From the human T2T-CHM13v2.0 reference genome, Homo sapiens, in NCBI RefSeq assembly GCF_009914755.1, contig NC_060938.1: 64,000 nt of DNA. One strand, given 5' to 3'. The notes beneath the pieces are model-generated. The model was not told the origin of the DNA. It was given only the letters and a program-made list of their open reading frames with translations, and did not search any database. Positions 20,300-64,000 of this stretch are shown here, one piece after another. Position 1 is the stretch's first letter; the number at the start of each line of letters is the position of its first letter. The position numbers were made by a program, and so were the translations under genes.

Positions 20300-20603
20300 T
20301 TTTTTTAAATTTTTTATTTTCAAGACGGAATCTTGCCCGGTCACCCAGGCTGGAGTGCAGTGGTGCAATCTCAGCTCCTGCAACCTCCATCTCCCAGGTT
20401 CAAGAAATTCTCTGCCTCAGCCTTCCTAGTAGCTGGGATTACAGGTGCCCACCACCACAGCAGACTAATTTTTTTTGTACTTTTAGTAGAGATGGAGTTT
20501 CACCATCTTGGCCAGGCTGATCTTGAATTCCTGACCTCGTGATACATCTGCCTCAGCCTCCCAAAGTGCTGGGATTACAGGCATGAGCCACAGCACCTGG
20601 CCA
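20300..20603 (-). mobile_element. Alu
   Basis: Reverse Alu with target-site duplication gtgcaaa(t/g)aaactt at ~20287 and ~20604. Confidence 0.92.
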
Positions 20604-20630
20604 GTGCAAAGAAACTTTAAAAGTGACATG

Positions 20631-20981
<351 letters not shown>

Positions 20982-25138: not shown

Positions 25139-25445
25139 ATTCACCTAACATTAACCCTAGTAATCAACACCCTATTAGCCCTTTTACTAATAATTATTAC
25201 ATTTTGGCTCCCACAACTTAATATATATATATGTAGAGAGAGAGAAAAATATATATATATGTATAAAATAAATATATATAGAAAAATCTAGCCCTTATGA
25301 ATGCAGATTTGACCCTCTATCCTCTGCCCACATTCCCTTCTCCATAAAATTCTTTCTAGTAGCCATCACATTTCCCCTATTTGAGTTAGAACTCGCCCTA
25401 CTACTACGCTTACTGTGAGCCCTTCAAACAATCTGATACTAATAA
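25139..25445 (+). pseudogene. MTND3P: NUMT: mitochondrial ND3 fragment interrupted by a (TA)n/(GA)n microsatellite
   Basis: …NTLLALLL.IITFWLPQLN[microsatellite ~25220-25280][29 protein letters not shown]…. Confidence 0.9.
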
Positions 25446-28350
25446 TCCCTGCGATATGTGTAGTGACTTCATACTTCACCCCCCCGGATATTATGGCCAA
25501 TATCAGAGTGGAGTGTGCACCCCCTGCAATATGGGGAGTGATATCATCCTCTCCCCACTGGATGTTATGGACAATATCACAGGAGGTTTACTTTCTCTGG
25601 GTTATGGGGAAAAATATCCTCCTGTCCCCGCCTGGATGTTAGACATATTTAGAGGGGGGTGTCCACCCCCTTGTGATATGGGGAGTAGTAATATCCTCTC
25701 CTGCCCTGGATGTTATGGACAATATATAGGGAGATGTACAATCCCTTCGATATGGGGAGTAATATCATCCTCTTCCCCCTAAACGTTACGAACAGTATCA
25801 CAGGGGGATGTACACGCCCTGCAATATCTGGAGTAGTATCATCCCCTTCTTCCCTAAATGTTACAGAGACTATCACAGGGGTGTGTACACCTTCTGAAAC
25901 ATGGGAATAATATTCTCTTCCCCTCTGGATGTTATTATGGACAACATTACAGCCGTGTGCACCCTCTATGATATGCAGAGTAATATCATCCTCTCCCCCC
26001 CGGATGTAAGTGACAATACCACAAACGGGTTTACATCCCCCGTGATATGGGGAGTAATATCATCCTCTTTCCCACTGGATATTAACAATATCACTTGGGG
26101 TGTACAACCCCTGTGATATTCGGGATAATACCTTTTAATCCACTGAAAATTATAAACAATATCACCAGTGTACACTCCCTGTGATATTGGAAGTAATATC
26201 ATCCTCTAATCCCCTAAAAATTATGAACAGTATAACAGGGGAGTGTATACTTCCTAATATATTTAGAGTAATATCATCCTGTCGTCTTCTAAATATTATG
26301 AACAATATTACAGGGGATGTAACACTCCCTGCGATATGTGGAGTAATATCATCCTCTCCTTCCCTAAATATTGTGAACAATATCACAGGAGGTTGTACAC
26401 AATCTGCGATATTGTTTGTAGTATCCAGTGGGAAAGAGGATGCTATTACTCCCCATATCACAGGGGGTGTACACCCCCACTGTGATATATTCAATAACAT
26501 CCAGAAGTAATATTACTGACAAAATTGCAGGGGGTGTAAACCCCACCTGTGATAACGTTCCTAATATCCCTGGGAAGAGAGGATGATATTATTCCCAATA
26601 TTGCAGGGAGTGTACACCCACCCTATGATATTGTTATTAATACCCAGGAGGGGAGACAATGGTATTACTCACAGTATCAAAGAGGTTGTACAGCCCCCCT
26701 GTGATAGTTTCTAATATCCAGGGGGTGTATACCACCCTTGTGATATTGTTTCTAATATGTAGGGGGAAGGACAATGATATTACTGTCCGTATCACAGGGG
26801 GTGTACAAGAAGCCCCCCGGGATATCATTCCTAATATCCATGGGAAGAAAGAATATTATAATATCACAGAAGTTGTACACCCCCTCTGTGATATTGTTCC
26901 TAATATCAAAGACAGAAGGGTATGATGTTCTTTCCAAAATCACAGGAAGTGTATACACACCCTGTGCTATTTTTCCTAATATCGAGAGTGAGAGACAATG
27001 ATACTTCCAATATCGTAAGGAGTGTACACTCTCCCCGTGATACCAGGTGGGGAAATGTTGATATTACTCCAAATGTCACAGTGGGTGTACACTCCGCCTG
27101 TGATATTGTTCCTAATATCTCGGGGAAGAGATTCCCCTAATATCTCGGGGAAGAGATACTCTCAATATCGCAATATCGCAGGATGTGTACACCCCCTTTG
27201 TGATATTGTTCCTAATATCCATAGGGGGAGAGGGTGATACCACTCCCAATAGTGCAGAAAAGGTACAGCCCCGCTGTGATATCATTCCTAATATCCAGAG
27301 GGGACAGGATGATATTACTCCCAATATCACAGAGGGCATACACCCCCTCCCCATGATATTGTTCATAATACCCAGGGGGTAGAGGATGATATTACTCCCA
27401 ATATCGCAGTGGGTGTACAACCACCCTGTGATATTGTTCCTAATATCCATGTGGAAAGGGTATAAAGTTACTCCCAATATCACAGGGGTTGTACAACCCC
27501 CTTGTGATATTGTTCCTTATATTCAGGGGAGAGACAATGATATAGCTGTCCATATTGCAGGTGGTGTACAACCCCCTGGGAATTTGTTCTTAATATTCAG
27601 TGGGGAAGATGATATTAATTAAAATGTCACGGGGGGTATACAACCCCTTTGTGATATTATTCCTAATATCCAGGGAAAGAAAGAATATTATTCCCAATAT
27701 CGCAGGGGATGTACACCCCTCTCTGATACTCTTTCTAATATCCCTGGGGGGAGTCTATAATATTACTGGCAATATCATAAGGAGTGTATACCCCCCGTTA
27801 TATTGTTCCTTATGTCCAGCAAGGGAGAAAATATTAATCCCAATATGGAACAGGGTGTAGACACCCATGAGTTATTGTTCCTAATATCCAGGGAGGGAAA
27901 GGATGATATTACTCCCAATGTTGCAGTGGTGTATAACCCCCCGTGATATTGTTCCTAATATCTAGGTGGGGAAAGTACAGTATTACTCCCAATATAGCAG
28001 GGGTTGTACACCACCTTTGTGATATTGTTCTACATATCCATGGGGAAAGAAAATGATAGTACTCCCCAATATCACAGGTGGTGTACAACCCCTTGTGATA
28101 CTGTTTCTAATATCCATGTTGGGGGAGGATATTACTCCCAATATTGCACGTGTTGCACAGACCCCCTTTGATATTGCTTGTACTATGCAGGGTGTGGGGG
28201 GAGAGGATGATATTGGGAGTAATATCACCCTCTCTCCCCGGATATTAAAAGCAACATTCAGGGTGGTCGACACTTCCTGCAATATTGAGTATAATATCCT
28301 CTCCCAACCTGGATATTAGGAACAATATCACAGGGGCATGTACACTCCCT
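25446..28350. repeat. SATR1/SATR2-type ~70-bp satellite with internal strand switches
   Basis: Unit ~cccctgcgatatggggagtaatatcatcctctccccc-ctggatattaggaacaatatcacaggggggtgtaca. Forward 25446-~26395, reverse ~26400-28205, forward again ~28210-28350. Confidence 0.85.
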
Positions 28351-36826: not shown

Positions 36827-43260
<6,434 letters not shown>

Positions 43261-46034: not shown

Positions 46035-48440
46035 CAGGTGGAAGACTAAATCCAAAGCTAGCAGAAGGAAAGAAATAACAAAGAGCATAGTTAGAGCATA
46101 AATCAATCAAATAGAAGGTTGGAGAGCAGTAGAATGAAAAAATGTAGATTCTTTGAAAGCTCAAGCCTTTCACTATATTGACTGAGCAAAAGATGGAAGA
46201 CTAATTATTAAAATAATAAATGAAAGCAGAGCCATTACTACCAACTTTACAGAAATACAAAAGGATTACAGGAGTATACTGTGAACAACTGTCTAGCAAC
46301 AAATTAGGTGCCCTGGATGAAATGGATGAATCGCTAGAAAGACACAAACTACCAAAGTGGCTCAAGAAGAAAGAGAAAATCTGAATAGACCTATAACCTA
46401 GGAGATTGAATTAGTAATCGAAAGCGATTAACAAAGAAACATTTATGACCAAATAGCTGCATTAACTGGTGAGTCAACCTAACATTTAAAGAAGAATTAA
46501 TACCATTTCTTCTCAAACTCTTCTGACAAAATATATGAAGAAGGAATACTTGCTAATTCATTTTTTGATAACAGCATTATCCTTATACCAAAGACAAAGA
46601 GAGCACAAAAGAGAGAAATACAGCACTATATCCCCTATGAATATATAAGCAAAAATCTCAGCAAACTACTAGCAATACTAGCAAAATACTAGCAGCAATA
46701 CTGTATAATCAAAGGATTGTAAACTATCACCCTTTGAGATTTATCCCCAAAATGCAAGGGTGGTTCAACATATAAAAAATCAATCAGTGTAATATGCTGT
46801 AACAGTAAAATGAATAAGCACGTGATTATTTCAATTGCTGCAGAGAAAACATTGATGAAATACAACACCCTTCTATAATAAAAATACTCTATAAACTAGG
46901 CATAGAAGGGATCTTCTGCAACATGACAATGGGATGTACAAAAACCCAACAGTTAATATCATGATCAATGATGAAACACTGAAAGCTGTTTTCCTAACAT
47001 CTAGAAGAAAAGGATGGTGCATTTGCCACTTGTATTCAACGTAGCACTGGCAGTTCTAGCCAGAGCAATTAGGCAAGACAAAGAAATAAAAGGCATCTAA
47101 ATTAGAAATAAAAAATAGGTGTAAAATTATATCTACACATGATCTTATAGGTATAAAGCTCCAAACAAAACACAAAACCGATTATAACTAATAAAAGAGG
47201 CAGGATGCAAACAAACATAGGCAAATGAGCTATATTTCTATATAGTTGTAAAGAACTATGAAAACATTTTAAAAATTCCATTTATAATGACATCAAGAAT
47301 ACGTTATTCAGGCATAAATCTAACCATGGTGGTATACACAAAACATTGCTGCAAAAAACTAAAGAGAGTGGAAATAAGTGGAAAGACATTCTGTGTTCAC
47401 GGGTTGTAAGACAATATTGTTAAGATGACAATACCATCTAAAGTAATCTACAGATTCAATGCAATACCATCAAAATCCCAAAGGCATTTTTGCAGAAACA
47501 AAGAAACTCATTCTAAAATCATACAAAAATTCAAAGGATCTGACAGACAAAACAGTCTTGAAAAAGAACATTGGAAAACTCACATTTTTCAGTTTCACAG
47601 ACTACTACAAATCTACAGTAATCAAGAGAGTGTGGTACTGGAATAAGACCAATAGACTTTCAGACAAATACAATAGAACAGATTGAGATCCTACAAGTTA
47701 GTCCTCACATATATGGTCAATGACTGTTCAACAAGGTGGCCAAGTCTAGTCAAGGGAGGAAAGAACAGTCTCTTCAACAGCTGGATGTCAGTGTACAAGA
47801 GAGAAGTTAGACCCCTACCTTGCAGTATATACAAAAATTAATTCTAAATTAATAAAAGACTTAAATGTAAGGACTAAAAATATGTAACTCTTAGAAGAAA
47901 ACACACGGTAAACCTTTATGACCTTTGAGTTTTAAGTGTATTTTGAAATATGACAGAAAAGCACAGATAACAAAAGAAAATACACGAAAATTAGATTTAA
48001 TCAAAATAAAAATCAAAGGATACTATCAAGGGAGTGAAAAGACAACCCATAATATGTGAGAAAATATGTATCTGATAAAATCAAAATGTGTATCTGATAA
48101 AAGCTTAATATCCCACAACTCAACAACAGAATTTCTAAGATCCCAATTAAAAAAATAGGCAAAGGACTTGAACAGACATTTCTCCAAAGAAGATACACAA
48201 ATGTCTAAGAAGGAAAAGAAAAGATGCTAAACACCATTATTCATTAATAAAATGCAAGGCAAAACCCAAATGAGATGCCACTTTGCATCCACTAGTAAGG
48301 CTTTCATAACAACGACACAGAAAATCAATGTTGCTAAGGAGGTGGAGAAACTGGAGCCCTCATGAACTGGCTGCTAGGAATAGAAAATGATGCACTTGCT
48401 GTGGAAAACAGTTTGGTGGTTCCTCAAAGAATCACACAGA
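46035..48440 (+). mobile_element. Old L1 ORF2 region (degenerate)
   Basis: ORF2 motifs in degraded form: 'aatgcaagggtggttcaacata', 'gttctagccagagcaattaggcaagacaaagaaataaaaggcatc', 'atctacagattcaatgcaatacc', 'gaacagacatttctccaaagaagata'. Confidence 0.85.
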
Positions 48441-48444
48441 GAAA

Positions 48445-49520
48445 CAGGCGGCGCTGGCTTGCGGGTTCTCCTGGGCTGGCGCGGGACGTCCCGGAATCGC
48501 AGGCGCGCATTCCTTCCCGCCTGAGGGCTCGCCTGGCCGTGACTCCTGCCCCTCTCCTCCTCCGAAGAGAGATCGGGGCCGCCCCAGGGGCCGTCTGCAG
48601 CCACCGGGGATGGGGCTGAGGGTCGGTTCCTGACCCGGTGCAGCCGCCCTTGGGCAGACCGCCTGGCTTGGTCGCAGCCACGGCGACATCTAGCCTCACT
48701 TCTGCGAGGCTGGGCGCGCCAGCCAGCTTGGGAGTCGCCCGGCGCCTGTAGCTGGGTGCCCAGGTGGTGGAGCATGCCCTGGGCCGCCTCTGGATCGCGG
48801 GTGCCCCTGGCCTGAGAGCCTGCCAGACCCTGCCCCGGTCCGGCTCCTCCTCTGTCAGAGCTCCAGATCTCTATCCAGGGGCCCTCTGCAGCCACCGGGG
48901 ATGGGGCTGAGGGCCGGTTCCCGCCCCTGTGCAGCTGCTGCAGGACAGACCGCCTGGCTTGGCCACAGCCACAGGGACATTTGGCCCTGCTTCCGAGATG
49001 TGGGGAGTGTGGGCGAGCTCGGGAGTTTCCTGGAGGCTGCTGCCTGCATGCACAAGGCAGCTGCAGCTCGGGTGCCCAGGCGGGCTGGAAGTGCATGGCC
49101 TGGTCGGCCTTGGGATCGCCAGCGCGCCCAGCCTGAGGTCCCCCAGGCCGTGCCTCCCGACCACTCCTCCACCTGAGGGAGATCGGAGCCATTTGTATGG
49201 GCACTCGGCAGTCACCTCGTGTGGGGTTGAGCGGTGGGTTCTCAGTTCTCGCTCCTGTGCAGCTGCTGCCGCAGGGCAGAATGCCTGGCTTGGCTGCAGC
49301 CACTGGGACACGTGGCCCTGCTTCTGTGATGTTATGAGCGCCAGCGGGCTCGGAGGTTGCCAGGCAGCTGCTGCCTGCACACAGAGGGCGACGGCAGCTT
49401 GGGCGCCCAGATGGCGGAGCATGGTTTGGGTAGACTCTGGAATGCGTGAGCGCCAGGCCTGAGGGTCACCCTGGTGGGGCCACATACCCTGGTCTTCCTC
49501 TGCTGGAGCCTGGAGCAGCT
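48445..49520. repeat. CpG-rich cassette made of ~3 diverged ~300-bp tandem units
   Basis: 'ctgcagccaccggggatggggctgaggg…gtgcagc…cagaccgcctggcttgg..(a/g)cagccac' at ~48595 and ~48886, and in more diverged form at ~49205-49310. High CpG content. Confidence 0.7.
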
Positions 49521-49799
49521 GGAATGGCCACTATTCCGTCACAGGGGATAGAGTTAAGTTTTCTTATCCCACCCATGCACACAAAAAGGTGACGATTCTG
49601 TGAGGTAATAAACGTGTTAATTGACTACATTCATGCCACTCTGCACCCACAAGTAAGGCTTTCATAACAATGACACAGAAAATAAATGTTGCTAAGGAGG
49701 TGGAGAAGTTGGAGCCCTCATGATCTGGCTGCTAGGAATAGAAAATGATGCCCTTGCTGTGGAAAACAATTTGGTTGTTCCTCACAGAATGAGCATTGG

Positions 49800-52348
<2,549 letters not shown>

Positions 52349-52641
52349 ACCCCTGAACCTGACCCTGACCCCTGACCCTGATCCCTAACCACTGACCCTG
52401 ACCCCTAACCCCTGACCCTAACCCTAACCCTTAACCGTAACCCCTAAGCCTAACCCCTAACCACAACCCTCACCCTCACACTAATCCAACCCTAACCCCT
52501 TATCCCTAACCCCTAACCTCTCTTAACCTCTAACTCTAAACGTTGACTCTTAACTCTTAACTCTGACCCCAACCCCTATCTCCAACCCCTAACCCTAAAC
52601 TTCACCCCTAACCCCTAACCCTAACACCAACCTTAACCCTA
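52349..52641 (+). repeat. Interstitial degenerate telomeric tract (CCCTAA/CCCTGA/CCCCAA variants)
   Basis: ccctgaacctgaccctgacccctgaccctgatccctaacc…ccctaaccctaacc…cttaaccct. Confidence 0.95.
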
Positions 52642-53290
52642 GGTTCGTTACTACGTTTGTACTATGTCAATGTTGATTATTATGATCTCTGTCTTAGGAC
52701 TGCATGGCAGCAAGGGGATTGCGGATCTTATATTAATATTTTTGTATTGAGGCAGTGCATTAGCATTACAGGTGCTTGTTACATGAGCAACGGGAGTGTC
52801 ATAATTTGGGTGTCATGTCTGCATTAGGAACGCTGCATTTGTCTTCCAAGGCTGCGGTGTGGATCTCGCACTGTGGCCGCCTCGGCTTGGCTGGGGAGAA
52901 CCTCGGTTGGCAGGATTCAGAGGGGCTTTTGGTTTCCCTTTTCCACACTGAGCCCTTCTAACTGGTCTCTGGCCCTGATTATTCAGGGCTGCAAAAGGGA
53001 AGGATTTTATTCACCGTCTATGCGGTCCCGAGTTGTCCCAAAGCGAGGCAGTGCCCCAAAGGTCTGTGCTGAGGAGAACGCTGCTCTGCCTTAGCGGTGT
53101 CCCCCGGGTCTGTGCTGAGCAGAACGCAGCTCCGCCCTCGCGGTGCCCCCGGCCCGCCTGGGTCTGTGCTGAGGAGAACACTGCTCCGCCTTCGCTGTAT
53201 CTCTGAAGTCTGTGCAGAGGAGAACTCAGCTCCGCCCTGGCGATGCTCTCCTTGTCTGTGCTGGGAAGAACGCAGCTCCGCCCTCGCAAA
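52642..53290. repeat. TAR1 telomere-associated repeat
   Basis: Immediately follows (CCCTAA)n: 'gcagtgcattagcattacaggtgcttgttacatgagcaa', then repeated 'tctgtgctgaggagaacgc…ctccgcc' units as at human chromosome ends. Confidence 0.9.
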
Positions 53291-53439
53291 GGCGCACAGT
53301 GCCGGCGCAGGAGCAGAGAGGCCCACAGCGCTGGCGAAAGGCGCAGAGAGGCCCACAGCGCCGGGGCAGGCGCAGAGAGGCCCACAGCGCCGGCGCAGGC
53401 GCAGAGAGGCCCACAGCGCCGGCGCAGGCGCAGAGAGGC
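53291..53439 (-). promoter_or_regulatory. 29-bp CpG repeat (~5 copies) of the subtelomeric 61-29-37 TERRA-promoter type
   Basis: gcgccggcgcaggcgcagagaggcccaca repeated. It lies on the TAR1 side of the telomeric tract, so transcription toward the tract would be on the minus strand. Confidence 0.75.
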
Positions 53440-55620
53440 AGAAGGCCCATGAGGGGAAGGTGAGACACCTGGGGCAAAGAAGAAAAAAAAATGCGCCGTG
53501 AAGCAGTGCCTGGGTCATCCAGGGACGAAAGTTTTTTCCCATCAGACCTTGCGCTGGGCCCCAGGGACTCTGGCATCCCTGGTTCACACCCGGGTTGTGC
53601 CTTAGGCGACTAGGGGTACCCCAACTTGGACAGAAGGCCCGTGAGTGGAAGTTGAAGTTTGTGGGAGGAGAGGTGAGGCACCAGGGGCAGAAAAAATAAA
53701 AAAAGAGGACCGCGTCTCAGAGAAGCGGGGCCTGGGTCCCCCACGGATGAAAGTGCCTTCCCATCAGGCCCTATGCTGGGCCTGGTGGACCCTGGCGACC
53801 CTGGTTCGAGCCCAGGGTGTGCCTCGGGACAGCTTGGGGTACCACAAAGCAAACAAAAGGTCCATGAGGGGAAGTTGAGGCACCTGAGGCAGAGAAAAAA
53901 AAATGCTCAGCCGAGAAGCAGTGCCTGGGTCACCCACGGATGAAAGTGCCATCCCATCAGCCCCTTCGCTGGGCCCTGGGGACCCTGGCGTCCCTTGTTT
54001 GACCCTGGGGTACGCCTCGGGACAGTAGGGGTACCCAAGGTGGGCAGAAAGCCCCTAAGGGGAAGGTGAGGCACCTAGGGCAGAGAAAAAAAAAACTTCA
54101 CCACGGAGAAACACGGCCTGGGTGCCCCACAGACGAAAGTGTCTTCCCATCAGTCCCTGCACTGGGACCCAGGGACCCTGGTGTCCCTTGTTCGAGCTCA
54201 GGGTGTGCCTCGGCCGCTAAGTGCACCCCAAGGGGGCTTTGGGGACACAAAACCCGTGAGGGGAAGGTGAGTTTTGAGGGAGGAGAGGTGAGGCACCTGT
54301 CACAGAAAAAGAAAAAAAAGAAACCCGCACCACGGAGAGGTGGGGCCTGGGTACCCCACGGATGAAAGTGCCTTCCCATCAGCCCCTGCGCTGGGCCCCG
54401 GGGAACCTAGAGTCCCTGGTTGGAGCTCATGGAGAGTCTCGGGCCACTAGGGATACCCAACGCGGTGGAAAGCCCATGAGAGGAAGGTGAGCTGTGAGGG
54501 AGGAGAGGTGAGGCACTTGTGGCAGAAAAGAAAAAGAAACCGAGCCACGGAAAAGTGGGGCCTGGGTCTCCCATGGAAAAAAAGTGCCTTCCCATCAGTC
54601 CCTGAGCTGGGCCCCGTGGACGCTGGAGACCCCGGTTCGAGCCCCGGGTGCGCCTCGGGCCTGCTAGGGGTACCACAAGGGGGGCTAAAATCCCATGAGG
54701 GGCAGTTGAGGTTTGAGGAAGGAGAGGTGAGGCACCTGTGGCAGAAAAAAAAAACTGCACCACGGAGAAGCGGAGCCTGGGTCCCCAACGGACGAAAGTG
54801 TCTTCCCATAAGCCCTTGCGCTGGGCACAGGGGACCCTGGCATTCCTGGTTCGAGACCAGGGTGCGATTCAGGCAGCTAGGGGTACGCCAAGACAGACAG
54901 AAGGCCCATGAGGGAAAGGTGAGACACCTGGGGCAGAGAACAAAATAAAAAACTGCGCATCCCAGAAGTGGGGACTGGGTTCCCCATGGACGAACGTCCC
55001 TATCCATAAGCCCTACACTGGGCCCCGGAGACCCTAGCATCCCTGGCTCAAAACAAGGGTGCGCCTCGAGCCGGATAGGGGTACCTCAAGACGGGCAGAA
55101 AGCCCATGACGGGAAAGTGAGGCACCTGTGGAAAAGAAAAGAAAAAAAAACGCAACAGAGAAGAAGAGCCGGGGTCCCCGAGGAAGAAAGTGTCTTATCA
55201 TCAGCCACTGCGCTTGACCCTGTGGAACCTGGCTTCCATGGTTCGAGCCCAGGGTGTGCCTTGGGCGGCTAGGGGTACCCCAAAGCTTGCAGAAGGCACA
55301 AGAGGGGAAGGTGAGGCACCTGGGGCAGAGAAAAAAAAACCCAGCCACGGAGAAGCGGGGACTGGGTCCTCCACATGGACGAAAGAGTCTTCCCATCAGG
55401 CCTTGTGCTGGGCCTCAGGGACCCTGGAGTCCCTGGTTCGATCCCACAGTGCAAATCGGGCCACTAGCTGTACCCCAAGGCAGACAGAAGCCACATGTAG
55501 GGAAGCTGAGATTTGAGGAAGGAGAGGAAAGGCATCTATCGTAGCAAAAAAAAAAACCGTGCAAAGGAGAAGCAGGGCATGGGTCCCCCACAGACGAAAG
55601 TGCCTTCCCATCAGGCCCTG
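53440..55620. repeat. GC-rich ~190-220-bp tandem repeat, ~11 units (ACRO-composite-associated satellite)
   Basis: Unit starts (gaaggcccatgaggggaaggtgaggcacc…) at ~53441, 53633, 53855, 54047, 54248, 54467, 54687, 54900, 55098, 55292 and 55487. Each has an A-tract and 'gggtcccccacggacgaaagtg'; most have 'ggggtaccc'. Confidence 0.85.
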
Positions 55621-55995
55621 AGGGTTTGAAACAGCATGAGGAGTGACTAATGTCTACAGGGTTCTTCTCTGGTCGGGGGTGATAAGACGTTCTACAATGG
55701 ATTGCGAATTAAAATTGAAATTGCACGACCACATTTATACTAAAAGCCACTCAATTCATGACTTTTAATGGCGGAAACTTATGTGGCGCACTCTCATGGA
55801 GACCACGGCAGACATAGTGAGAGAGAAAAAGGTGAGTAAATATCTGAAACGGAGGCAGAAAGAGAGAGAATGAAAAGCCCTGTGAATGGAAGGGAGAGAG
55901 AAAAGGGAAAGTGGTCCTATTTACAAATGACAGATGTGAAACTGGGGTTCACATCAACAGTGTCACTGCCAGGAAGGAGGGTCATGCTAGCCATG

Positions 55996-57912
55996 TCACC
56001 GGTAGTGTGTTCCGCAGGGACGCCGACCTGCTGGAGCGTCGTGCCAGCATGGGCTCTGGCAGCCACGTGGGCCAGCAGGAGGGTCCCGTTGCACAGCTGT
56101 GGGGTGAGGATAGACTGGGTGGTGATATCGGCCATGACAGGGGCCTCTTCTGCTGGCAAGAGTGTGACAATAGCAAGTAGATGGACAGGCCTGCGTGTGA
56201 GGACGGAATGCAGGAGGGGCTCTTGTGCGGCTGGGTGTGGGGCCCTCACGGGAACCGTGGAGTAATGGCCAGGTAACTGCGTCATGTGGGCTAGTAGATT
56301 GGCCAGGGCTTCGAACTGAAGGACAATAACGGGGAGTAGCTGTCAGGCCCTGGGAGTGTCTGAGTGTAGGTGGAGATGGGTTTGGGGTCACAGAGGGATG
56401 CGTGGGAGCCATCCCTGTAGAGGTGCAGGTCATAGGGAGATAGTCTCGTGAGGCCTGTGAGTGTCTAGGGTTGTCCTGGGTGCCTGGGGCTGACTGTGGC
56501 AGAAATCTGGGGAAGGCTGGAGAGAAGCTGGGAGACCCAGGAGAGTCCCTGAAGGCAGGGGGTGAAGAGGTGAAAGAAATGGGGGAGGGTTGCAGTAAGG
56601 TCCGTGAGTTTGTAGGTGATTCCTGGGTGCGGGAAGCTGACTCCAGGTGAAATCTGGAGATGGTTGGAGAGTAGCTGAGAGAGACAGAAGAGTCCCTGAG
56701 GGCTGCGGGTGAGAACATGAGGGAGACTGGGGAGTAAGTCAGTGAAATTCGTGAGTTTGGTGGTGTATCGTGGGTGCCTGGAACTGACTCCAGCTGGAAC
56801 CTAGAGAAGTTTTGAGAGTAGCTGAAAGAGACACGAGAGTCCCTGTGGGCTGAGGGCAAAGACCTCAGAGAGACCGGGGAGGACCTCAGTGAAGTCTGTG
56901 AGTCCGTAGGTGATTCTGGAGTGTGGGAGGCTGACTCCCGCTGAAATCTGGGCGTGGTGGGAGAGTAGCTGGGACAGACAGGAGAGTCCCAGGGGGCTGG
57001 GGGTGAAGACATGAGAGAGACTGGGGAGTAACTCAGTGAAACTGCTGAGTTTGTAGGTGATACCTGGGTGCCTGGAACTGACTCCCGCTGAAATCTGGGC
57101 ATGGTTGGAGAGTAGCTGGGACCCCCAGGAGAGTCCCTGAGGGCTGGGGGTGAAGACATGAGAGAGACCGGGGAGTAACTGAGTGAAACTGGTGAGTCTG
57201 GTGGTGACTCCGGGGTGCCTGGAACTGACTCCAGCTGAAATGTGGGCGTGCTTGGAGAGTAGCTGGGACAGACAGGAGAGTCCCTGAGGGTTGGAGATAA
57301 AGACGTGCTAGAGACTGAGGAGTAACTGAGTGAAATTGGTGAGTTTGGTGGTGATTCCGGAGTGCCTGGAACTGACTCCAGCTGCAATGTGGGCTTGGCT
57401 GGAGAGTAGCTGGGACAGACGGGAGAGTCCCTGAGGGATGGTGAAGACATGAGAGAGACTGGGGAGTAACGCAGTGAAATTGGTGAGTTTGGTGGTGATT
57501 TCTGGTTGCCTGCAACGGACTCCCGCTGAAGTGTGGGCGTGTTTGGAGAGTAGCTGGGACAGTCAGGCGAGTCCCTGAGGGTTGGAGATAAAGACGTGCT
57601 AGAGACTGGGGAGTAACTCAGTGAAAGTGGTGGGCTTGGCGGTGATCCCTGGGTTCCTGCAACTGACTCGCGCTGAAATGTGGGCGTGGTTGGAGAGTAG
57701 CTGGGACAGACTGGAGGGTCCGTAAGGGCTGGGGGTGAAGACGTGAGAGAGACTGGCCAGGATCTCACTGAGGTCTGTGAGTTTGTAGGTGTTTCTGGGG
57801 TGTGGGGTACAGACTCCCGCTGAAATCTGGGCGTGGTTGGAGAGTAGCTGGGACAGACAGGAGAGTCATGGGTGGCTGGGGATGAGCTGCTGGATGATGG
57901 CAGTAAGAACAT
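55996..57912 (-). CDS. Ser/Pro-rich 49-aa-repeat ORF (ACRO1-type 147-bp repeats); 5'-truncated inverted copy, 638 aa from the first ATG
   Basis: Open frame to 57960, where the track start is a TTG outside the duplicated arm; first ATG at 57912. Nine full repeats plus a partial one, then a His/Cys/Arg-rich tail identical to the plus-strand copy. No promoter is recognisable for this copy. Confidence 0.4.
   Translation of the reverse strand: MFLLPSSSSSSPATHDSPVCPSYSPTTPRFQRESVPHTPETPTNSQTSVRSWPVSLTSSPPALTDPPVCPSYSPTTPTFQRESVAGTQGSPPSPPLSLSYSPVSSTSLSPTLRDSPDCPSYSPNTPTLQRESVAGNQKSPPNSPISLRYSPVSLMSSPSLRDSPVCPSYSPAKPTLQLESVPGTPESPPNSPISLSYSSVSSTSLSPTLRDSPVCPSYSPSTPTFQLESVPGTPESPPDSPVSLSYSPVSLMSSPPALRDSPGGPSYSPTMPRFQRESVPGTQVSPTNSAVSLSYSPVSLMSSPPAPWDSPVCPSYSPTTPRFQRESASHTPESPTDSQTSLRSSPVSLRSLPSAHRDSRVSFSYSQNFSRFQLESVPGTHDTPPNSRISLTYSPVSLMFSPAALRDSSVSLSYSPTISRFHLESASRTQESPTNSRTLLQPSPISFTSSPPAFRDSPGSPSFSPAFPRFLPQSAPGTQDNPRHSQASRDYLPMTCTSTGMAPTHPSVTPNPSPPTLRHSQGLTATPRYCPSVRSPGQSTSPHDAVTWPLLHGSREGPTPSRTRAPPAFRPHTQACPSTCYCHTLASRRGPCHGRYHHPVYPHPTAVQRDPPAGPRGCQSPCWHDAPAGRRPCGTHYR
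56470..57870 (-). repeat. ACRO1-type 147-bp satellite array (left, inverted copy)
   Basis: 147-bp period of 'ggagagtagctgggacagacaggagagtccctgaggg'; reverse complement of ~60225-61620. Confidence 0.85.
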
Positions 57913-57959
57913 GTGGTAAGGGCCGAGTCCCGCCAGACAGGCCTCCCACACTCGTAACA

Positions 57960-58320
57960 ACCGGAAGCCCTACATTGTTTTACCTGTGCTTCTCAGCAAC
58001 TGCCTATAAATTAGGTTGCTGCCACTCCCAGATTTAGTTGCATTCATTGGCTGGAAGAGCTCACAGCACGTAGGGAAACACTTACATTTGCCGTTGTATT
58101 TTAGCGGACATTGCAAAAGTTCAGAAATAAATGTGGGGCCCGGCATGTGGGGAGGGGCGCACTGCCTTCCAGGAAGTGTTATCCAGAAGCTCCCTGAACC
58201 CAGTCCTTTTGGGTTTTTATGGAGACCTCATTCTATAGGCATGATGGGTTAAACCATAGGCTATTGGTGATCAACTCCACCTGAGGCTCTCAACCCTCCC
58301 TGGAAATTGGGGTTGAGGCT
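57960..58320. mobile_element. MER21-like ERVL LTR fragment
   Basis: 'gaagctccctgaacccagtccttttgggtttttatggagacctcattctataggcatgatgggttaaaccataggctattggtgatcaactc' resembles MER21 and the reverse-oriented sequence at ~42380-42480. Confidence 0.6.
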
Positions 58321-58400
58321 TTGCCATTCTCAGTCTGACTAAAAGAAGTTACCCAAACGGAATTTTAAAACAGATGAGCATAACTGGACTCTTAATTAGA

Positions 58401-58411
58401 TGATTGGATTA
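58401..58411 (-). promoter_or_regulatory. DUX4-consensus site (TAATCCAATCA on the minus strand)
   Basis: tgattggatta at 58401-58411 fits the DUX4 motif TAAYYBAATCA. It lies ~530 bp upstream of the predicted TSS. Motif match only. Confidence 0.4.
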
Positions 58412-58873
58412 TCTGGACACACACCTTGATATTCCAAACCGGAGCACCCTCATCCAACGAATGCTCCACCCAACTGGCTCCCAAGTCTCCACGTGGTTCC
58501 AGAGCAAAAGAATGTTTATACAACGCATATCTCTACTTTTTCTTCAAAGTCTTTTCGCTTACACGGAAAGACTTCTTCAACTGCCATGCATCAGGGTCAG
58601 GGGGAGGTCTTGTTGCAACACACATCTGTGGATCTCCGGGATTTGATTGTGGCAAGGATGCTGCTGGTGTCGAAACCACAACGTGGGAACCACAGAACCA
58701 CTGGTTGGTTTTCAGTGTTTCAGTGCATACAATTCCTAATATATCTGGCCAAGAAAACTTGGAAGTTCTTAGATTGTCCCAAAGGTGGCGCATGAAATCA
58801 AAGCAGGAGAACAGTTTCCTACGAGGTGTAGCCTGGGAAAGTTGGGGGTGACTGATGGAAAGGAGGAGTGAAG

Positions 58874-58945
58874 CTCCGCCCTTTCCGCTGCTAGGCTGCG
58901 CCCGAGGCTATTTAAACCCACCCTGGCTGGCCTGTACTCAGATCT
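58874..58945 (+). promoter_or_regulatory. Predicted Pol II core promoter: GC box, TATA box, Inr
   Basis: ctccgccc at 58874-58881; TATTTAAA at 58909-58916; Inr-like TCAGAT with A at 58940, 31 nt from the first T of the TATA box. Local CpG enrichment, and no ATG between 58940 and 59260. Confidence 0.6.
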
Positions 58946-59259
58946 TCGCGGAGCGGATCAGCGGCCGGAGCGTTTGGCGGACTCTGCGTGGACTTGGAGC
59001 TCACGGCGTCTTGCGACTTGGAAGCGGATTCAGAGGACAGGACAGAACACTTGGGCAAGTGAATCTCTGTCCGTCTGTCTTTCTGTCTGTCTGTGTGTCT
59101 GTCTCATTGGTTGGTTGATTTTCATTTTCTTAAGGGGCACATACCTCACACCGCACACACAGAAACACACACACACACGCACACACACGCACACACACTC
59201 CTTCCTTCTGCGAGTTAGAAAATTAGTAGGGGCCCCTGGGAGCTGCAGGTTTCCTAATC

Positions 59260-62096
59260 ATGTCTGCACCTAAGAACAGTTGGGAATTGTCTGGCTCTTC
59301 TTATGAACGGTCCCCCAGCCAGGACTCCCCAAGGTCCATGCGAGCCTCACCCAGCTTCTCCCTCTCCCCTCTCAGAAACTCAGGCTTAAGGGGAAGCTCC
59401 TCACCAGGGATCCGGAGCTACCATTCACCATCCCCTAGGGCTTCACCACACTCACCTCTGTCATCACCAGAATCCCACAAGCTCCCATTTGCCTGTCCTC
59501 ACCGTGATGGGCAATCAATGAAGCCATCGGGCTCTCCCGTGTCCTCCTCTGAGGATTCCTCAGAGTCCCCACGTTCATCAATAATATACCACATGTTCTT
59601 ACTGCCATCACCCAGCAGCTCACCCCCAGCTCTCGGGGGGTCTCCTGTGTCTCCCAGCTACTCTCCAAACAACCCCAGATTTCAGCTGGAGTCAGCCCCC
59701 CACACCCAGGAATCACCTACAAACTCACGAGCCTCACGGTGCTGCATCCCTGTGTCTTTCATCTCTTCACCCCCAGGCCTCAGGGACTCTCCTGTGGCTC
59801 CCAGTTCCTCTCCAGCCATCCCCAGGTTCCTGCGGGAGTCAGCCCCATGCACCCAGGAGTCCCCCAGAGACTCACATGTCTCGGGAGAATATGAGCGGTC
59901 CTCCAGCCCTGACTCCTCAAGATTCAGGCCTGCCTCACCCAGCTACTCCCTCTCCCCTCCCAGAAACTCAGACCCAAGGGCAGCTCCTCACCAGGGATGT
60001 GGAAGTACTCTACATCATCCCGCAGGGCTTCACCACTCTCACATCCATCATCAACAGAATTCCACAGCTTTACGTTTCCCTTTCCTAACCAAGCAGGACA
60101 GTCACTCATGTCATTGTGTTCTCCCGTGTCCTCCTCTGGAGATTCTTCACAGTCACCTCATTCATCAATAATATACCATATGTTCTTACTGCCATCATCC
60201 AGCAGCTCATCCCCAGCCACCCATGACTCTCCTGTCTGTCCCAGCTACTCTCCAACCACGCCCAGATTTCAGCGGGAGTCTGTACCCCACACCCCAGAAA
60301 CACCTACAAACTCACAGACCTCAGTGAGATCCTGGCCAGTCTCTCTCACGTCTTCACCCCCAGCCCTTATGGACCCTCCAGTCTGTCCCAGCTACTCTCC
60401 AACCACGCCCACATTTCAGCGTGGGTCAGTTCCAGAAACCCAGGGATCACCGCCAAGCCCACCACTTTCACTGAGTTACTCCCCAGTCTCTAGCACGTCT
60501 TTATCTCCAACCCTCAGGGACTCGCCTGACTGTCCCAGCTACTCTCCAAACACGCCCACACTTCCGCGGGAGTCCGTTGCAGGCAACCAGAAATCACCAC
60601 CAAACTCACCAATTTCACTGCCTTACTCCCCAGTCTCTCTCATGTCTTCACCATCCCTCAGGGACTCTCCCGTCTGTCCCAGCTACTCTCCAACCACGCC
60701 CACATTGCAGCTGGAGTCAGTTCCAGGCACTCCGGAATCACCACCAAACTCACTAATTTCACTCAGTTACTCCTCAGTCTCTAGCACGTCTTTATCTCCA
60801 ACCCTCAGGGACTCTCCTGTGTGTCCCAGCTACTCTCCAACCACGCCCACACTTCAGCTGGAGTCAGTTCCAGGCACCCCGGAATCACCACCAAACTCAC
60901 CAGTTTCACTCAGTTACTCCCCGGTCTCTCTCATGTCTTCACCCCCAGCCCTCAGGGACTCTCCTGGGGGTCCCAGCTACTCTCCAACCATGCCCAGATT
61001 TCAGCGGGAGTCAGTTCCAGGCACCCAGGTTTCACCTACAAACTCAGCAGTTTCACTGAGTTACTCCCCAGTCTCTCTCATGTCTTCAGCCCCAGCCCCC
61101 TGGGACTCTCCTGTCTGTCCCAGCTACTCTCCCACCACGCCCAGATTTCAGCGGGAGTCAGCCTCCCACACTCCAGAATCACCTACGGACTCACAGACTT
61201 CACTGAGGTCCTCCCCGGTCTCTCTGAGGTCTTTGCCCTCAGCCCACTGGGACTCTCGTGTCTCTTTCAGCTACTCTCAAAACTTCTCTAGATTCCAGCT
61301 GGAGTCAGTTCCAGGCACCCACGATACACCACCGAACTCACGAATTTCACTGACTTACTCCCCAGTCTCCCTCATGTTCTCACCCCCAGCCCTCAGGGAC
61401 TCTTCTGTCTCTCTCAGCTACTCTCCAACCATCTCCAGATTTCACCTGGAGTCAGCTTCCCGCACCCAGGAATCACCTACAAACTCACGGACCTTACTGC
61501 AACCCTCCCCCATTTCTTTCACCTCTTCACCCCCTGCCTTCAGGGACTCTCCTGGGTCTCCCAGCTTCTCTCCAGCCTTCCCCAGATTTCTGCCACAGTC
61601 AGCCCCAGGCACCCAGGACAACCCTAGACACTCACAGGCCTCACGAGACTATCTCCCTATGACCTGTACCTCTACAGGGATGGCTCCCACGCATCCCTCT
61701 GTGACCCCAAACCCATCTCCACCTACACTCAGACACTCCCAGGGCCTGACAGCTACTCCCCGTTATTGTCCTTCAGTTCGAAGCCCTGGCCAATCTACTA
61801 GCCCACATGACGCAGTTACCTGGCCATTACTCCACGGTTCCCGTGAGGGCCCCACACCCAGCCGCACAAGAGCCCCTCCTGCATTCCGTCCTCACACGCA
61901 GGCCTGTCCATCTACTTGCTATTGTCACACTCTTGCCAGCAGAAGAGGCCCCTGTCATGGCCGATATCACCACCCAGTCTATCCTCACCCCACAGCTGTG
62001 CAACGGGACCCTCCTGCTGGCCCACGTGGCTGCCAGAGCCCATGCTGGCACGACGCTCCAGCAGGTCGGCGTCCCTGCGGAACACACTACCGGTGA
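59260..62096 (+). CDS. Ser/Pro-rich, Pol II CTD-like 49-aa-repeat protein gene encoded by ACRO1-type repeats; split into 303-aa and 699-aa ORFs by a 1-nt deletion (945 aa if repaired)
   Basis: ATG 59260 has A at -3 and is the first ATG after the TSS. ORF 59260-60171 overlaps ORF 59997-62096 in the -1 frame. The internal duplicate 'agg gga agc tcc tca cca ggg' (59388) versus 'agg gc agc tcc tca cca ggg' (59977) places the missing G. Repeat unit: DSPVCPSYSPTTP.FQ.ESVPGT.ESPPNS..SLSYSPVSL.SSPPALR. ATTAAA at 62323-62328. Confidence 0.55.
60225..61620 (+). repeat. ACRO1-type 147-bp satellite array (right copy), 9 full units plus a partial unit
   Basis: 'gactctcctgtctgtcccagctactctccaaccacgcccagatttcagc' recurs every 147 bp (60225, 60372, …), with one 144-bp unit. 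Length and context agree with the acrocentric ACRO1/ACR1 repeat as recalled. Confidence 0.85.
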
Positions 62097-62334
62097 CATG
62101 GCTAGCATGACCCTCCTTCCTGGCAGTGACACTGTTGATGTGAACCCCAGTTTCACATCTGTCATTTGTAAATAGGACCACTTTCCCTTTTCTCTCTCCC
62201 TTCCATTCACAGGGCTTTTCATTCTCTCTCTTTCTGCCTCCGTTTCAGATATTTACTCACCTTTTTCTCTCTCACTATGTCTGCCGTGGTCTCCATGAGA
62301 GTGCGCCACATAAGTTTCCGCCATTAAAAGTCAT

Positions 62335-62640
62335 GAATTGAGTGGCTTTTAGTATAACTGTGGTCGTGCAATTTCAATTTTAATTCGCAATCCATTGTAG
62401 AACGTCTTATCACCCCCGACCAGAGAAGAACCCTGTAGACATTAGTCACTCCTCATTCTCTCTCAAACCCTCTTCCTGACCCTCAGCCCTAGGTAGCAAC
62501 TACCTAGTGCGATCAACCCCATATGCACAGATATCCATATTGTGGACATTTCCTACAAACGGAATTGCACAATAGGTGAGCTGTTATGACTGACATAACA
62601 CGTAGCACAATATTTTCAAGATTCATCCACATTGTAGGCT
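62335..62640 (-). mobile_element. Old L1 (L1M) 3'-end fragment
   Basis: 'ggacatttcctacaaacggaatt…gcacaatattttcaagattcatccacattgtag' is a typical antisense L1M 3' end. Confidence 0.6.
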
Positions 62641-62689
62641 GACCCACAGGGGGAAACCATTTTGTGGGGAGTTTTAGTGACACCGGGTG

Positions 62690-62800
62690 TTTTGTCCTTC
62701 TTTTCGTCCTTCTTTCCTTCCTTCCTTCTTTCCTTCCTTCCTTCCTTCCTACCTTCCTTCTTTCCTTCCTTCCTTCCTTCCTTCCTTCCTTCCTTCCTCC
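62690..62800. repeat. (TTCC)n simple repeat
   Basis: ccttccttccttctttccttcc… read directly. Confidence 0.95.
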
Positions 62801-63544
62801 TATTTGTCTCTTACTCCTTCTGCCCTCTCTCTTTCATATGCCTTAGGTGCATCCCACATTCTGCGTTTTTTTGGGGAAATCCTCGACAGGTGCAGGAAAA
62901 TTGTGTTATTGTAACTATTTACCGCTATCTCTCTTTCACGGCTCTCCATCAGTTGTGAACATCTATTGGTTTATCCCAAGTCACTAAGCATATTTTTATT
63001 AGGTACACCTGTTTTTCCTTATACAGCTGTTTCTGGAGTATAGGGTCGCATACTCACAAACCCAGTGTAACTCAGAAACGCATCTAATATTCCAATAAAC
63101 CCATCTTAACGTTGAAAAATCATGAATCAAACCATCATAAGTTACGGTTTGTCCGTGGATATGGGTGTCATCAATTCCATTGTATTCAGTAATGCTGTAC
63201 ACCATTAACAATGGCAGACTGATTGGGAGTGTATATTGATAGCATTATAACAGTCAGTTATTAGAGGGATACTTCTTTAACCTGACTGAAGAAGTGATCT
63301 AATGGCTTTAGTACAGTGCATGATTATGTGAGATGTTTTGAGACAGAGTAGTACATTTGTGAATGAAATTTTATGGCTTTTTTTCACTTAGTAGGAACCA
63401 TTGTGTGTGGAAAAGTGAGAAAATTGCTTTCTGCTGTAGGGTCTGGCATTCATTGTGGATTTAAGCTTATTTTTCTGTGAGCAAATCTTATTCAATAAAA
63501 TACTATTCTTTATACTAAAAAACAAAAACAGTGGTGATGTGTGG

Positions 63545-63845
63545 TCATTATCCTCAGCAAACTAGTCTAGGGAAAGAAAACCAAACGCCACATTCTCACT
63601 TAAAATGGGAGCAGAAAAATGAGATCACATGGACACTGGAAGGGGAACAACACACACTGGGGCCTTTCGGGAGGCAGAGCTTTAAGAAAAACAGCTACTG
63701 CATGCTGGGCTTAATACCTAGGTGATGGGTTGACAGGTGCAGCAAACCACCATGACCCACGTTTACCTTAGTAACAAATCTGCACATCCTGCACATATAC
63801 CCCAGAACTTAGAAACGAAACGAAACAAAAGAAAACGAAAAAGCA
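63545..63845 (+). mobile_element. L1PA 3' UTR end with (GAAAC)n-derived tail
   Basis: cattatcctcagcaaacta…gggcttaatacctaggtgatgggttgacaggtgcagcaaaccaccatg…ctgcacatcctgcacatataccccagaactta. Confidence 0.85.
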
Positions 63846-64000
63846 ATAGCAAAGCGCTAAAGGCAAAATAAAGTTTCCAACTCCGAAAGTGACAGACCAA
63901 TGTTTGGTTCAAATCATGGTTCTCAGCCCAGGCGCCATAAGGTCAGGATAAAGAATTTGATTACATATTGTAAATAAGACATGCAACAAATGACCAGAAA

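What the first reader, a model, noticed from the sequence alone, without database searches (positions are those of the whole stretch)
55620..62472. Inverted duplication (~2.3-kb arms, ~2.25-kb spacer) placing two repeat-ORF copies head-to-head
Seen: ~55620-57918 is the reverse complement of ~60174-62472. The distal parts are nearly identical (the 131-, 122-, 89- and 64-aa track ORFs match on both arms). Differences cluster in the repeat units, at roughly a dozen amino-acid changes, and neither arm has a stop or frameshift. The left arm begins at the second 'YHMFLL' and lacks the promoter and N-terminus. Inference: a recent fold-back duplication or arm-to-arm gene conversion. The spacer (MER21 LTR plus promoter) could drive both copies, and read-through across both arms would yield a >2-kb dsRNA hairpin.
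Basis: partly seen in the sequence, partly recalled or inferred. Interest (0 to 1): 0.7.

Follow-up and report, generated by a model that had tools for sequence, protein, structure and literature searches.

The report
Head-to-head ACRO satellite palindrome remnant
The two mirror-image 2.3-kb stretches are real, but they are two of about 225 copies of a known satellite unit (ACRO), likely the leftover centre of an old head-to-head array whose arms later exchanged sequence, and nothing tested here points to a working gene pair or a double-stranded RNA source.

Summary
The inverted repeat is real: 55620-57918 vs 60174-62472, 2,299 bp, no gaps, 27 differences (98.8%). Both arms are parts of the known ~6.2-kb ACRO composite (147-bp ACRO1 satellite, Pol II CTD-like frame), with 225 genome hits. 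The left arm is not a fresh fold-back copy. Its outer junction is shared with 16 other loci, so it is an old terminal ACRO unit; only the inner junction (1-bp overlap) is unique. Five other loci, including a chr21 paralog with both flanks, also have head-to-head ACRO switches. All breakpoints could be nested deletions around the chr4 one. The inner 1.2 kb of the arms differs by 1.8%, with changes on both arms; the outer 1.07 kb differs by 0.2% and carries alleles private to the pair. Best reading: an old palindrome with a central deletion and later arm-to-arm conversion. The repeat frame shows no constraint (omega about 0.8 between arms, 1.1 across copies). The right copy has a private frameshift in the spacer and the left has no promoter. 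Divergent transcripts could not pair with each other; a dsRNA hairpin needs untested read-through. Mostly ordinary satellite turnover.

The parts
52349..52640 (.). Degenerate telomere-like repeat (context; internal subtelomere remnant)
   Evidence: TRF 6/7/13/20-bp units; sequence shown
53061..53439 (.). 46-bp and 29-bp GC-rich repeats, TAR1/TERRA-promoter-like (name recalled); the annotated lncRNA LOC124907359 starts here and runs away from the arms
   Evidence: CpG o/e 0.74 in 53001-53500; hub annotation
53437..55619 (.). ~195-bp GC-rich tandem array abutting the left arm; the junction at 55619/55620 is shared with 16 other loci
55620..57918 (-). Left arm: 3' part of the old terminal ACRO unit, truncated at its 5' side
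55996..57912 (-). 638-aa ATG-started S/P/T-rich frame; no promoter of its own; 18 upstream ATGs between it and the TATA-like site
56474..57867 (-). ACRO1 147-bp array of the left arm (9.5 units)
57918..57919 (.). Orientation-switch junction, 1-bp overlap (A), unique in the genome
57919..60173 (+). Spacer: native 5' part of the right ACRO unit (LTR-derived part per literature, promoter-like region, N-terminal 588-bp duplication)
58401..58411 (-). TAATCCAATCA, DUX4-type motif (consensus recalled); also upstream of 17 of 21 other fetched units
58909..58916 (+). TATA-like TATTTAAA of the right unit (predicted promoter)
59059..59248 (+). Predicted 5'-UTR intron (GT donor at 59059; acceptor AG at 59247-8 or slightly upstream); untested
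   Evidence: sequence; conserved motifs
59260..60171 (+). 303-aa frame from the family's ATG, cut short by a frameshift private to this copy
59620..59875 (+). Short 256-bp ACRO1 array described for ACRE units
   Evidence: Boots 2020 passage
59978..59980 (+). G-run one base shorter than in 24 of 24 other copies (frameshift)
59997..62096 (+). 699-aa downstream ATG frame with the CTD-like repeats
60174..62472 (+). Right arm: ACRO1 array plus 3' tail of a full-length ACRO unit
60207..61618 (+). ACRO1 147-bp array of the right arm; holds 21 of the 27 arm differences
61387..62456 (+). Near-identical outer tract (2 differences in 1,070 bp; longest perfect stem 690 bp, 61668-62357); inferred conversion tract, mirrored at 55636-56705
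62323..62328 (+). ATTAAA, possible polyadenylation signal (mirrored at 55764-55769, minus)
62473..64000 (+). Rest of the right ACRO unit (period 6,156 bp); a third, L1-truncated unit follows beyond the window

Best explanation
The two arms are the inner ends of two ACRO satellite units that face away from each other, likely the remnant of an old head-to-head ACRO array whose centre was removed by a non-homologous deletion and whose outer ~1.07 kb was later made near-identical, most likely by arm-to-arm gene conversion. Shown: both arms are ACRO sequence; the left arm sits at an old terminal junction shared with 16 loci; the inner junction is unique and has a 1-bp overlap; the chr21 paralog has the same flanks and its own switch; the arms are each other's closest relatives in the tail. 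Inferred: the deletion, the conversion, and their order. Inferred function: none of its own. The right unit is predicted to be a DUX4-responsive ACRO transcription unit with a broken frame, and the left arm a promoter-less, neutrally drifting remnant.
For: Family: 147-bp units, 1.4-kb plus 256-bp arrays, 6,156-bp period, weak RPB1-CTD match E 7e-4; 225 hits. Old outer junction: 16 other loci among 40 scored of 361 candidates; the left arm shares the T at 62462-equivalent with the chr21 terminal unit, while the right arm shares C at 62460 with the chr21 internal unit. Unique inner junction: 1 match at up to 3 mismatches, 1-bp overlap. Head-to-head switch in 5 of 11 other mapped regions, giving 5 distinct junctions including this one. 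All four others could be nested deletions around the chr4 junction; breakpoint clustering P 0.009 and 0.013 against uniform placement in the unit. The chr21 paralog shares both flanks at 1.0-1.8% divergence. Two epochs in the arms: 22/1213 vs 2/1070, Fisher P 1e-4, scan permutation 16/20000. Array changes are on both arms (9 right, 10 left, 3 unclear), at the same density (0.74-0.82%) as private changes in the spacer (0.81%). The tail has 12 alleles private to the pair. The chr4 ACRO palindrome has outer arms with 2 differences in 3,195 bp. Deletions across the spacer and inner arm are reported for human X palindromes (PMC8327919 passages).
Against: Other close ACRO pairs also differ more in the array than in the tail: chr13/chr3 11/1590 vs 2/833; chr4 tandem pair 24/1590 vs 3/833; chr21/chr13 20/1590 vs 3/833. 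So the gradient is not special to these arms and could reflect faster array turnover. 8 of 18 derived array alleles also occur in a neighbouring monomer (expected 29%, P 0.11), which is inconclusive. The 2,255-bp spacer fits published fold-back spacers (766-70,466 bp, median 3,428; PMC3907307 passages). Direction of conversion is unresolved. About 20 of ~225 copies were aligned, and the regions were chosen partly for opposite-strand hits.
Confidence: 0.6

Rival explanations
1. One fold-back event: a break near 57919 folded back onto 60174, copied the right unit and was captured by homology on the old terminal unit; the array then drifted faster than the tail.
For: Geometry and spacer size match fold-back junctions. 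Both arms have the same monomer count, one fewer than the chr21 units. 9 private substitutions lie in the first 275 bp beside the junction. The array-over-tail excess is seen in other close pairs.
Against: Only 1 bp of overlap at the junction. The array is not faster over long times (median array/tail ratio 0.88 over 153 pairs). The arms share only 4 private alleles in the array but 12 in the tail. The chr21 paralog was already head-to-head.
Confidence: 0.2
2. The two units were homogenised while in tandem and were placed opposite each other later, by a crossover between out-of-register arms of an already head-to-head locus, followed by the deletion.
For: chr14 has terminal | Q, R and chr21 has terminal, U2 | R, the same number of units. 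The right unit shares derived alleles with chr21 U2 at 62528, 62556 and 62664. Tandem neighbours on chr22 are identical over the array and tail.
Against: The spacer shares 3 derived alleles only with the downstream chr14 unit, against 1 with the chr21 minus-side units. It needs more steps.
Confidence: 0.1
3. A functional divergent pair or dsRNA source: the DUX4-type site in the spacer drives both arms, or read-through across both arms folds into a 2.3-kb hairpin.
For: A DUX4-type motif sits about 500 bp from both the left-arm ATG and the TATA-like site. DUX4 activation and the 4-cell peak of ACRO1 are reported (passages). Both arm frames are open, with a 690-bp perfect stem.
Against: omega is 0.72-0.85 between arms, and no stop among 23 changes has a 40-50% chance under neutrality. 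Family omega is 1.13. The right copy is frameshifted. 18 upstream ATGs precede the left ATG. Divergent RNAs are the same sense strand. Plus-strand read-through meets ATTAAA at 55708 and AATAAA at 58126. Sense ACRO1 RNA blocks Pol II elongation in cis (Boots 2020 passages). The annotated lncRNA points away.
Confidence: 0.07
4. Assembly artefact.
For: The inner junction occurs once in the assembly inside a high-copy repeat.
Against: Each arm has its own derived alleles. Both flanks and the head-to-head layout recur at chr21:6.52-6.55 Mb. The whole structure is 6.9 kb, short enough for single long reads (inference).
Confidence: 0.03

Closest known systems
ACRO composite / ACRE with ACRO1 satellite (Boots 2020 PMC7714431; Hoyt preprint 10.1101/2021.07.12.451456; Solar preprint 10.64898/2025.12.22.696095)
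   Same: 147-bp unit, long plus 256-bp arrays, ~6-kb higher-order unit, CTD-like translation, acrocentric short arm
   Different: A three-unit cluster with an orientation switch rather than a long homogenised tandem array; left unit 5'-truncated; right unit frameshifted; third unit cut by L1
Primate X/Y palindromes with arm-to-arm conversion and spacer/inner-arm deletions (PMC8327919; PMC8600007 seen as listing only)
   Same: Inverted arms with a single-copy spacer, arms closer to each other than to paralogs, unstable centre
   Different: Arms 2.3 kb and 98.8% identical (those palindromes are over 10 kb and over 99%); autosomal satellite; no constrained gene
Fold-back inverted duplications with a disomic spacer (PMC3907307)
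   Same: Spacer of a few kb contiguous with one arm; non-homologous junction
   Different: 1-bp overlap instead of 2-8 bp; no terminal deletion; the 'duplicated' arm is an older unit with its own shared junction
chr4:49.24-49.29 Mb ACRO palindrome and chr21:6.52-6.55 Mb paralog (this genome)
   Same: Same terminal junction, head-to-head ACRO units, spacer 2.2-2.4 kb
   Different: Different breakpoints; chr4 is symmetric, with 99.9% identical outer arms in the 3.2 kb compared

Membership tests
ACRO composite (ACRE) | 147-bp ACRO1 unit in a 1.3-2.4-kb array | tested here: met
   period 147, 9.5 copies, 1.39 kb on both arms
ACRO composite (ACRE) | Second short array of 256 bp | tested here: met
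   59620-59875
ACRO composite (ACRE) | ~6-kb higher-order unit, multicopy on acrocentrics, chr1, chr3, chr4 | tested here: met
   period 6,156 bp; 225 hits, first 100 listed on C1, C3, C4, C13, C14, C15, C21; C22
ACRO composite (ACRE) | Translation resembles the Pol II CTD | tested here: met
   13 of 14 PDB hits are RPB1, best E 6.7e-4, low-complexity match; no Pfam family
ACRO composite (ACRE) | Contains MER21B, L1PA10 and L1MB8 pieces | not testable with these tools
   no Dfam library; composition taken from the Solar preprint, section 5
ACRO composite (ACRE) | Direct identity to the Dfam/Repbase ACRO1 consensus or KF726396 | not testable with these tools
   sequence not available; membership rests on the four features above
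Palindrome under arm-to-arm conversion | Arms are each other's closest relatives and share private alleles | tested here: met
   tail 2 differences vs at least 22 to 18 other copies, 12 private alleles; next best 97% among 40 scored of 243; motif only in the two arms
Palindrome under arm-to-arm conversion | Conversion distinguished from recent single duplication | tested here: inconclusive
   two-epoch profile but similar gradients in non-palindromic pairs
Large sex-chromosome-type palindrome | Arms over 10 kb and over 99% identical | tested here: not met
   2.3 kb, 98.8%
Fold-back inverted duplication | Single-copy spacer of kb size contiguous with one arm | tested here: met
   2,255 bp, native order with the right arm
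Fold-back inverted duplication | 2-8 bp or longer inverted homology at the junction | tested here: not met
   1 bp; some published junctions also lack it
Fold-back inverted duplication | The inverted arm is a new copy ending at a new junction | tested here: not met
   outer junction shared with 16 loci
Constrained protein-coding gene pair | Intact frame from promoter-linked ATG and dN/dS below 1 | tested here: not met
   frameshift; omega 0.72-0.85 and 1.13
Endogenous long-hairpin dsRNA locus | One transcript spanning both arms, J2-bound or A-to-I edited | not testable with these tools
   no RNA data available

The most novel reading that the evidence does not exclude
All head-to-head ACRO loci (chr1, chr4, chr13, chr14 twice, chr21) descend from one ancestral inversion whose centre has been eroded by independent nested deletions that always strip the promoter from the terminal-side unit and leave a ~2-kb spacer. 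At this locus the surviving DUX4 site fires both ways in the early embryo, giving a repeat-only 638-aa CTD mimic from the left arm and occasional read-through hairpin RNA.
Probability: 0.08. Interest if true: 0.65.

Novelty: new member of a known kind. Interest (0 to 1): 0.28.

Why it matters
As it stands it is a worked example of how acrocentric satellite clusters turn over: inversion, loss of the centre, exchange between arms. The unique junction and arm-specific alleles give mappable markers in a 225-copy family, so locus-specific ACRO transcription and spacer flipping become directly testable. The nested set of five head-to-head junctions was not found described in the passages read. If the locus did make a long hairpin RNA or a CTD-like protein under DUX4, it would bear on embryonic genome activation and FSHD, but nothing here shows that.

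Tried and rejected
1) New inverted insertion at a fresh site: rejected, the outer junction is shared. 2) Left arm copied from a distant ACRO locus: rejected for the tail, whose alleles are private to the pair. 3) ORF preservation as a sign of selection: rejected. The one hint the other way is 10 stop alleles against 18 expected in the family set. 4) Monomer-to-monomer conversion as the source of array differences: one search split the monomers wrongly and is discarded; the redo was inconclusive, 8 of 18. 5) Direction of conversion: conflicting sites, unresolved. 6) Pfam: 0 families for 3 proteins. 7) The bacterial promoter scan does not apply to human DNA and is not used. 8) Microhomology extension failed for chr14:5.83 Mb; its junction was taken from BLAST ends. 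9) Papers of no use here: PMC6581058 (contamination), PMC3847771 (ACRO138 is a different repeat), 10.64898/2026.07.18.739380 (0 whole-word hits). 10) My notebook says 7 full-length units; the correct count is 6 of 21. 11) No protein homology search, fold or complex prediction was run: the frame is low-complexity and unconstrained. About 20 of ~225 copies were aligned; the long homogenised arrays are barely sampled.

Full report
Observation. Self-alignment of the window gives one gap-free inverted match, 60174-62472 against 57918-55620: 2,299 bp at 98.83%, with 27 differences. Shuffled sequence gives inverted hits of at most 37 bp in 5 of 5 trials. 22 differences fall in the inner 1,213 bp, 2 in the next 1,070 bp and 3 in the last 16 bp. 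23 are in the long frame, 15 of them amino-acid changing.

What the sequence is. Each arm holds 9.5 copies of a 147-bp unit. The spacer holds a 256-bp second array, and the higher-order period is 6,156 bp. The frame matches the RPB1 C-terminal repeats weakly (13 of 14 PDB hits, best E 6.7e-4). These are the published features of the ACRO1-containing element (Boots 2020, PMC7714431, passages), called the ACRO composite in Hoyt et al. (preprint, passages) and Solar et al. (passages and section 5 part 1). A 24-mer from the tail has 225 hits in the genome, 0 for the reversed control. So the arms are two members of a large known family.

The two junctions. The outer end of the left arm, where the ACRO tail is cut and meets a ~195-bp array, recurs at 16 other loci among 40 scored of 361 candidates. 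Those loci carry the same downstream bases. The left arm therefore occupies an old terminal unit; it is not new sequence at a new site. The inner junction at 57918/57919 is found once in the genome and has a 1-bp overlap. The right arm continues natively into the rest of a full unit, then into a third unit cut by L1 beyond the window.

Other head-to-head loci. Of 11 other regions mapped (10-30 kb each, chosen partly for opposite-strand hits), 5 show an orientation switch: chr21:6,537,795, chr4:49,260,356, chr13:10,464,997, chr14:5,832,080 and chr1:127,769,450. The last two share one junction. With this locus that makes five distinct junctions, with spacers of 2255, 2167, 2388, 1497 and 2392 bp. 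In unit coordinates the four others could each be a deletion spanning the chr4 junction; for this locus 1,262 bp on one side and 1,395 bp on the other. Both breakpoint sets cluster (P 0.009 and 0.013 against uniform placement, post hoc). In all five the terminal-side unit is cut at or downstream of its TATA-like site. The chr21 locus shares both flanks with this one at 1.0-1.8% divergence, so their common ancestor was likely already head-to-head. The two outer chr4 arms differ at 2 of 3,195 bases.

History of the arms. In the 833-column tail the arms differ at 2 sites and from each of 18 other copies at 22 or more. They share 12 alleles seen in no other aligned copy. A motif with some of these alleles hits only the two arms genome-wide, and the next best tail is 97% among 40 scored of 243. 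In the array, against 20 other copies, 9 differences are derived on the right, 10 on the left and 3 are unclear; only 4 alleles are private to the pair. The contrast is significant (Fisher P 1e-4; permutation 16 of 20,000). Private changes per arm in the array (0.74-0.82%) equal those in the spacer (0.81%). Over 153 pairs the array is not more divergent than the tail (median ratio 0.88). This favours early separation of the arms and later homogenisation of the outer ~1.07 kb, ending before 62460, where each arm still resembles its chr21 counterpart. Against this, several close non-palindromic pairs show the same array excess, and monomer-level shuffling could not be excluded (8 of 18, P 0.11). 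A single fold-back with a fast array therefore stays at 0.2; its spacer size fits the published range (Hermetz 2014, PMC3907307, passages). Deletions through the spacer and inner arm are reported for X palindromes (PMC8327919, passages). On a recalled rate near 1e-9 per site per year, the inner divergence would mean millions of years and the outer tract about a million or less; this is rough.

Coding. The unit looks like a spliced transcription unit: DUX4-type motif 58401-58411 (consensus recalled), TATA-like 58909, GT donor 59059, ATG 59260, stop 62094-62096, ATTAAA 62323. Of 21 other fetched units with this ATG, 6 read 944-993 aa to the usual end, 2 read 972 aa, 2 are open until an L1 cut and 11 stop earlier. 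This copy has a private one-base deletion (0 of 24 others) and gives 303 aa. Between arms omega is 0.72-0.85, and the absence of a stop has a 40-50% chance under neutrality. Across 20-23 copies omega is 1.13, with 10 stop alleles against 18 expected. No Pfam family matches. A putative coding gene in ACRO is already mentioned in print (PMC12746033, passage).

Transcription and dsRNA. ACRO1 RNA peaks at the 4-cell stage and is activated by DUX4 according to passages read (PMC6545021; PMC8990217; FSHD preprint; PMC5832720). Bidirectional transcripts from the 4p11 pericentromeric region are reported in Ewing sarcoma vesicles (10.1101/806851, passage). For this locus only the rightward promoter is retained. 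Divergent firing would give two same-sense RNAs that cannot pair. The left ATG has 18 upstream ATGs. A hairpin needs a transcript from outside. The annotated lncRNA points away, two polyadenylation hexamers lie on the plus-strand path, and sense ACRO1 RNA inhibits elongation in cis in reporters. None of this was tested with RNA data.

Novelty. Seven literature searches were run. In the passages read I found no description of this palindrome, of nested head-to-head ACRO junctions, or of an ACRO dsRNA hairpin. Supplements (Boots SI Fig. S3, Hoyt Fig. S10, Solar supplements) were not read and may show inverted units, and the library lacks most subscription papers. The element family, the CTD resemblance, DUX4 activation and palindrome centre instability are known. 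Verdict: a real, locus-specific structural variant of a known satellite, a new member of a known kind, interest 0.28.

Noticed in passing
G000 C21:6,537,795; C4:49,260,356; C13:10,464,997; C14:5,832,080; C1:127,769,450: Further head-to-head ACRO switches. Five distinct junctions with this locus, all compatible with nested deletions around the chr4 one, spacers 1.5-2.4 kb, and the terminal-side unit always cut at or after its TATA-like site.
   Followed up: partly
L029 and L030 (C4:49,237,201-49,240,400 and 49,287,931-49,291,130): Outer ends of a ~54-kb ACRO palindrome on chr4 differ at 2 of 3,195 bases, flank included.
   Followed up: partly
window 58401-62328 and other ACRO units: The ACRO unit has gene-like anatomy (DUX4-type motif, TATA-like site, predicted 5' intron, ATG, ~945-993-aa frame, ATTAAA); 6 of 21 other units are full length, but omega is 1.13.
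   Followed up: partly
window 57954-58193: 9 private substitutions in the first 275 bp of the spacer next to the junction, of 17 in the whole spacer; may mark error-prone repair or an unsampled donor.
   Followed up: no
window 52349-55619: Internal subtelomere remnant: degenerate telomere repeat, 46/29-bp TAR1-like repeats (name recalled) and a ~195-bp GC-rich array, recurring beside terminal ACRO units at 16 other loci.
   Followed up: partly
L009 from 5908 (C14:4,035,908): The third ACRO unit is cut inside its 147-bp array by L1-like sequence; the same cut is in the chr21 paralog.
   Followed up: partly
window 25444-28214: 74-76-bp satellite (SATR-like, name recalled) with blocks in both orientations, 63-72% identical.
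   Followed up: no
window 1-10930: Degenerate ~3.2-kb tandem duplication, 76-80% identical, with inner ~0.9-kb sub-repeats.
   Followed up: no
window 20301-20928 and 37909-38593: Closely spaced inverted Alu-sized pairs, 76% and 66% identical.
   Followed up: no
window 48275-49790: GC-rich region under predicted gene LOC124907358, with internal ~300-bp direct repeats and a 158-bp 92% direct repeat (48275-48432 vs 49633-49790).
   Followed up: no
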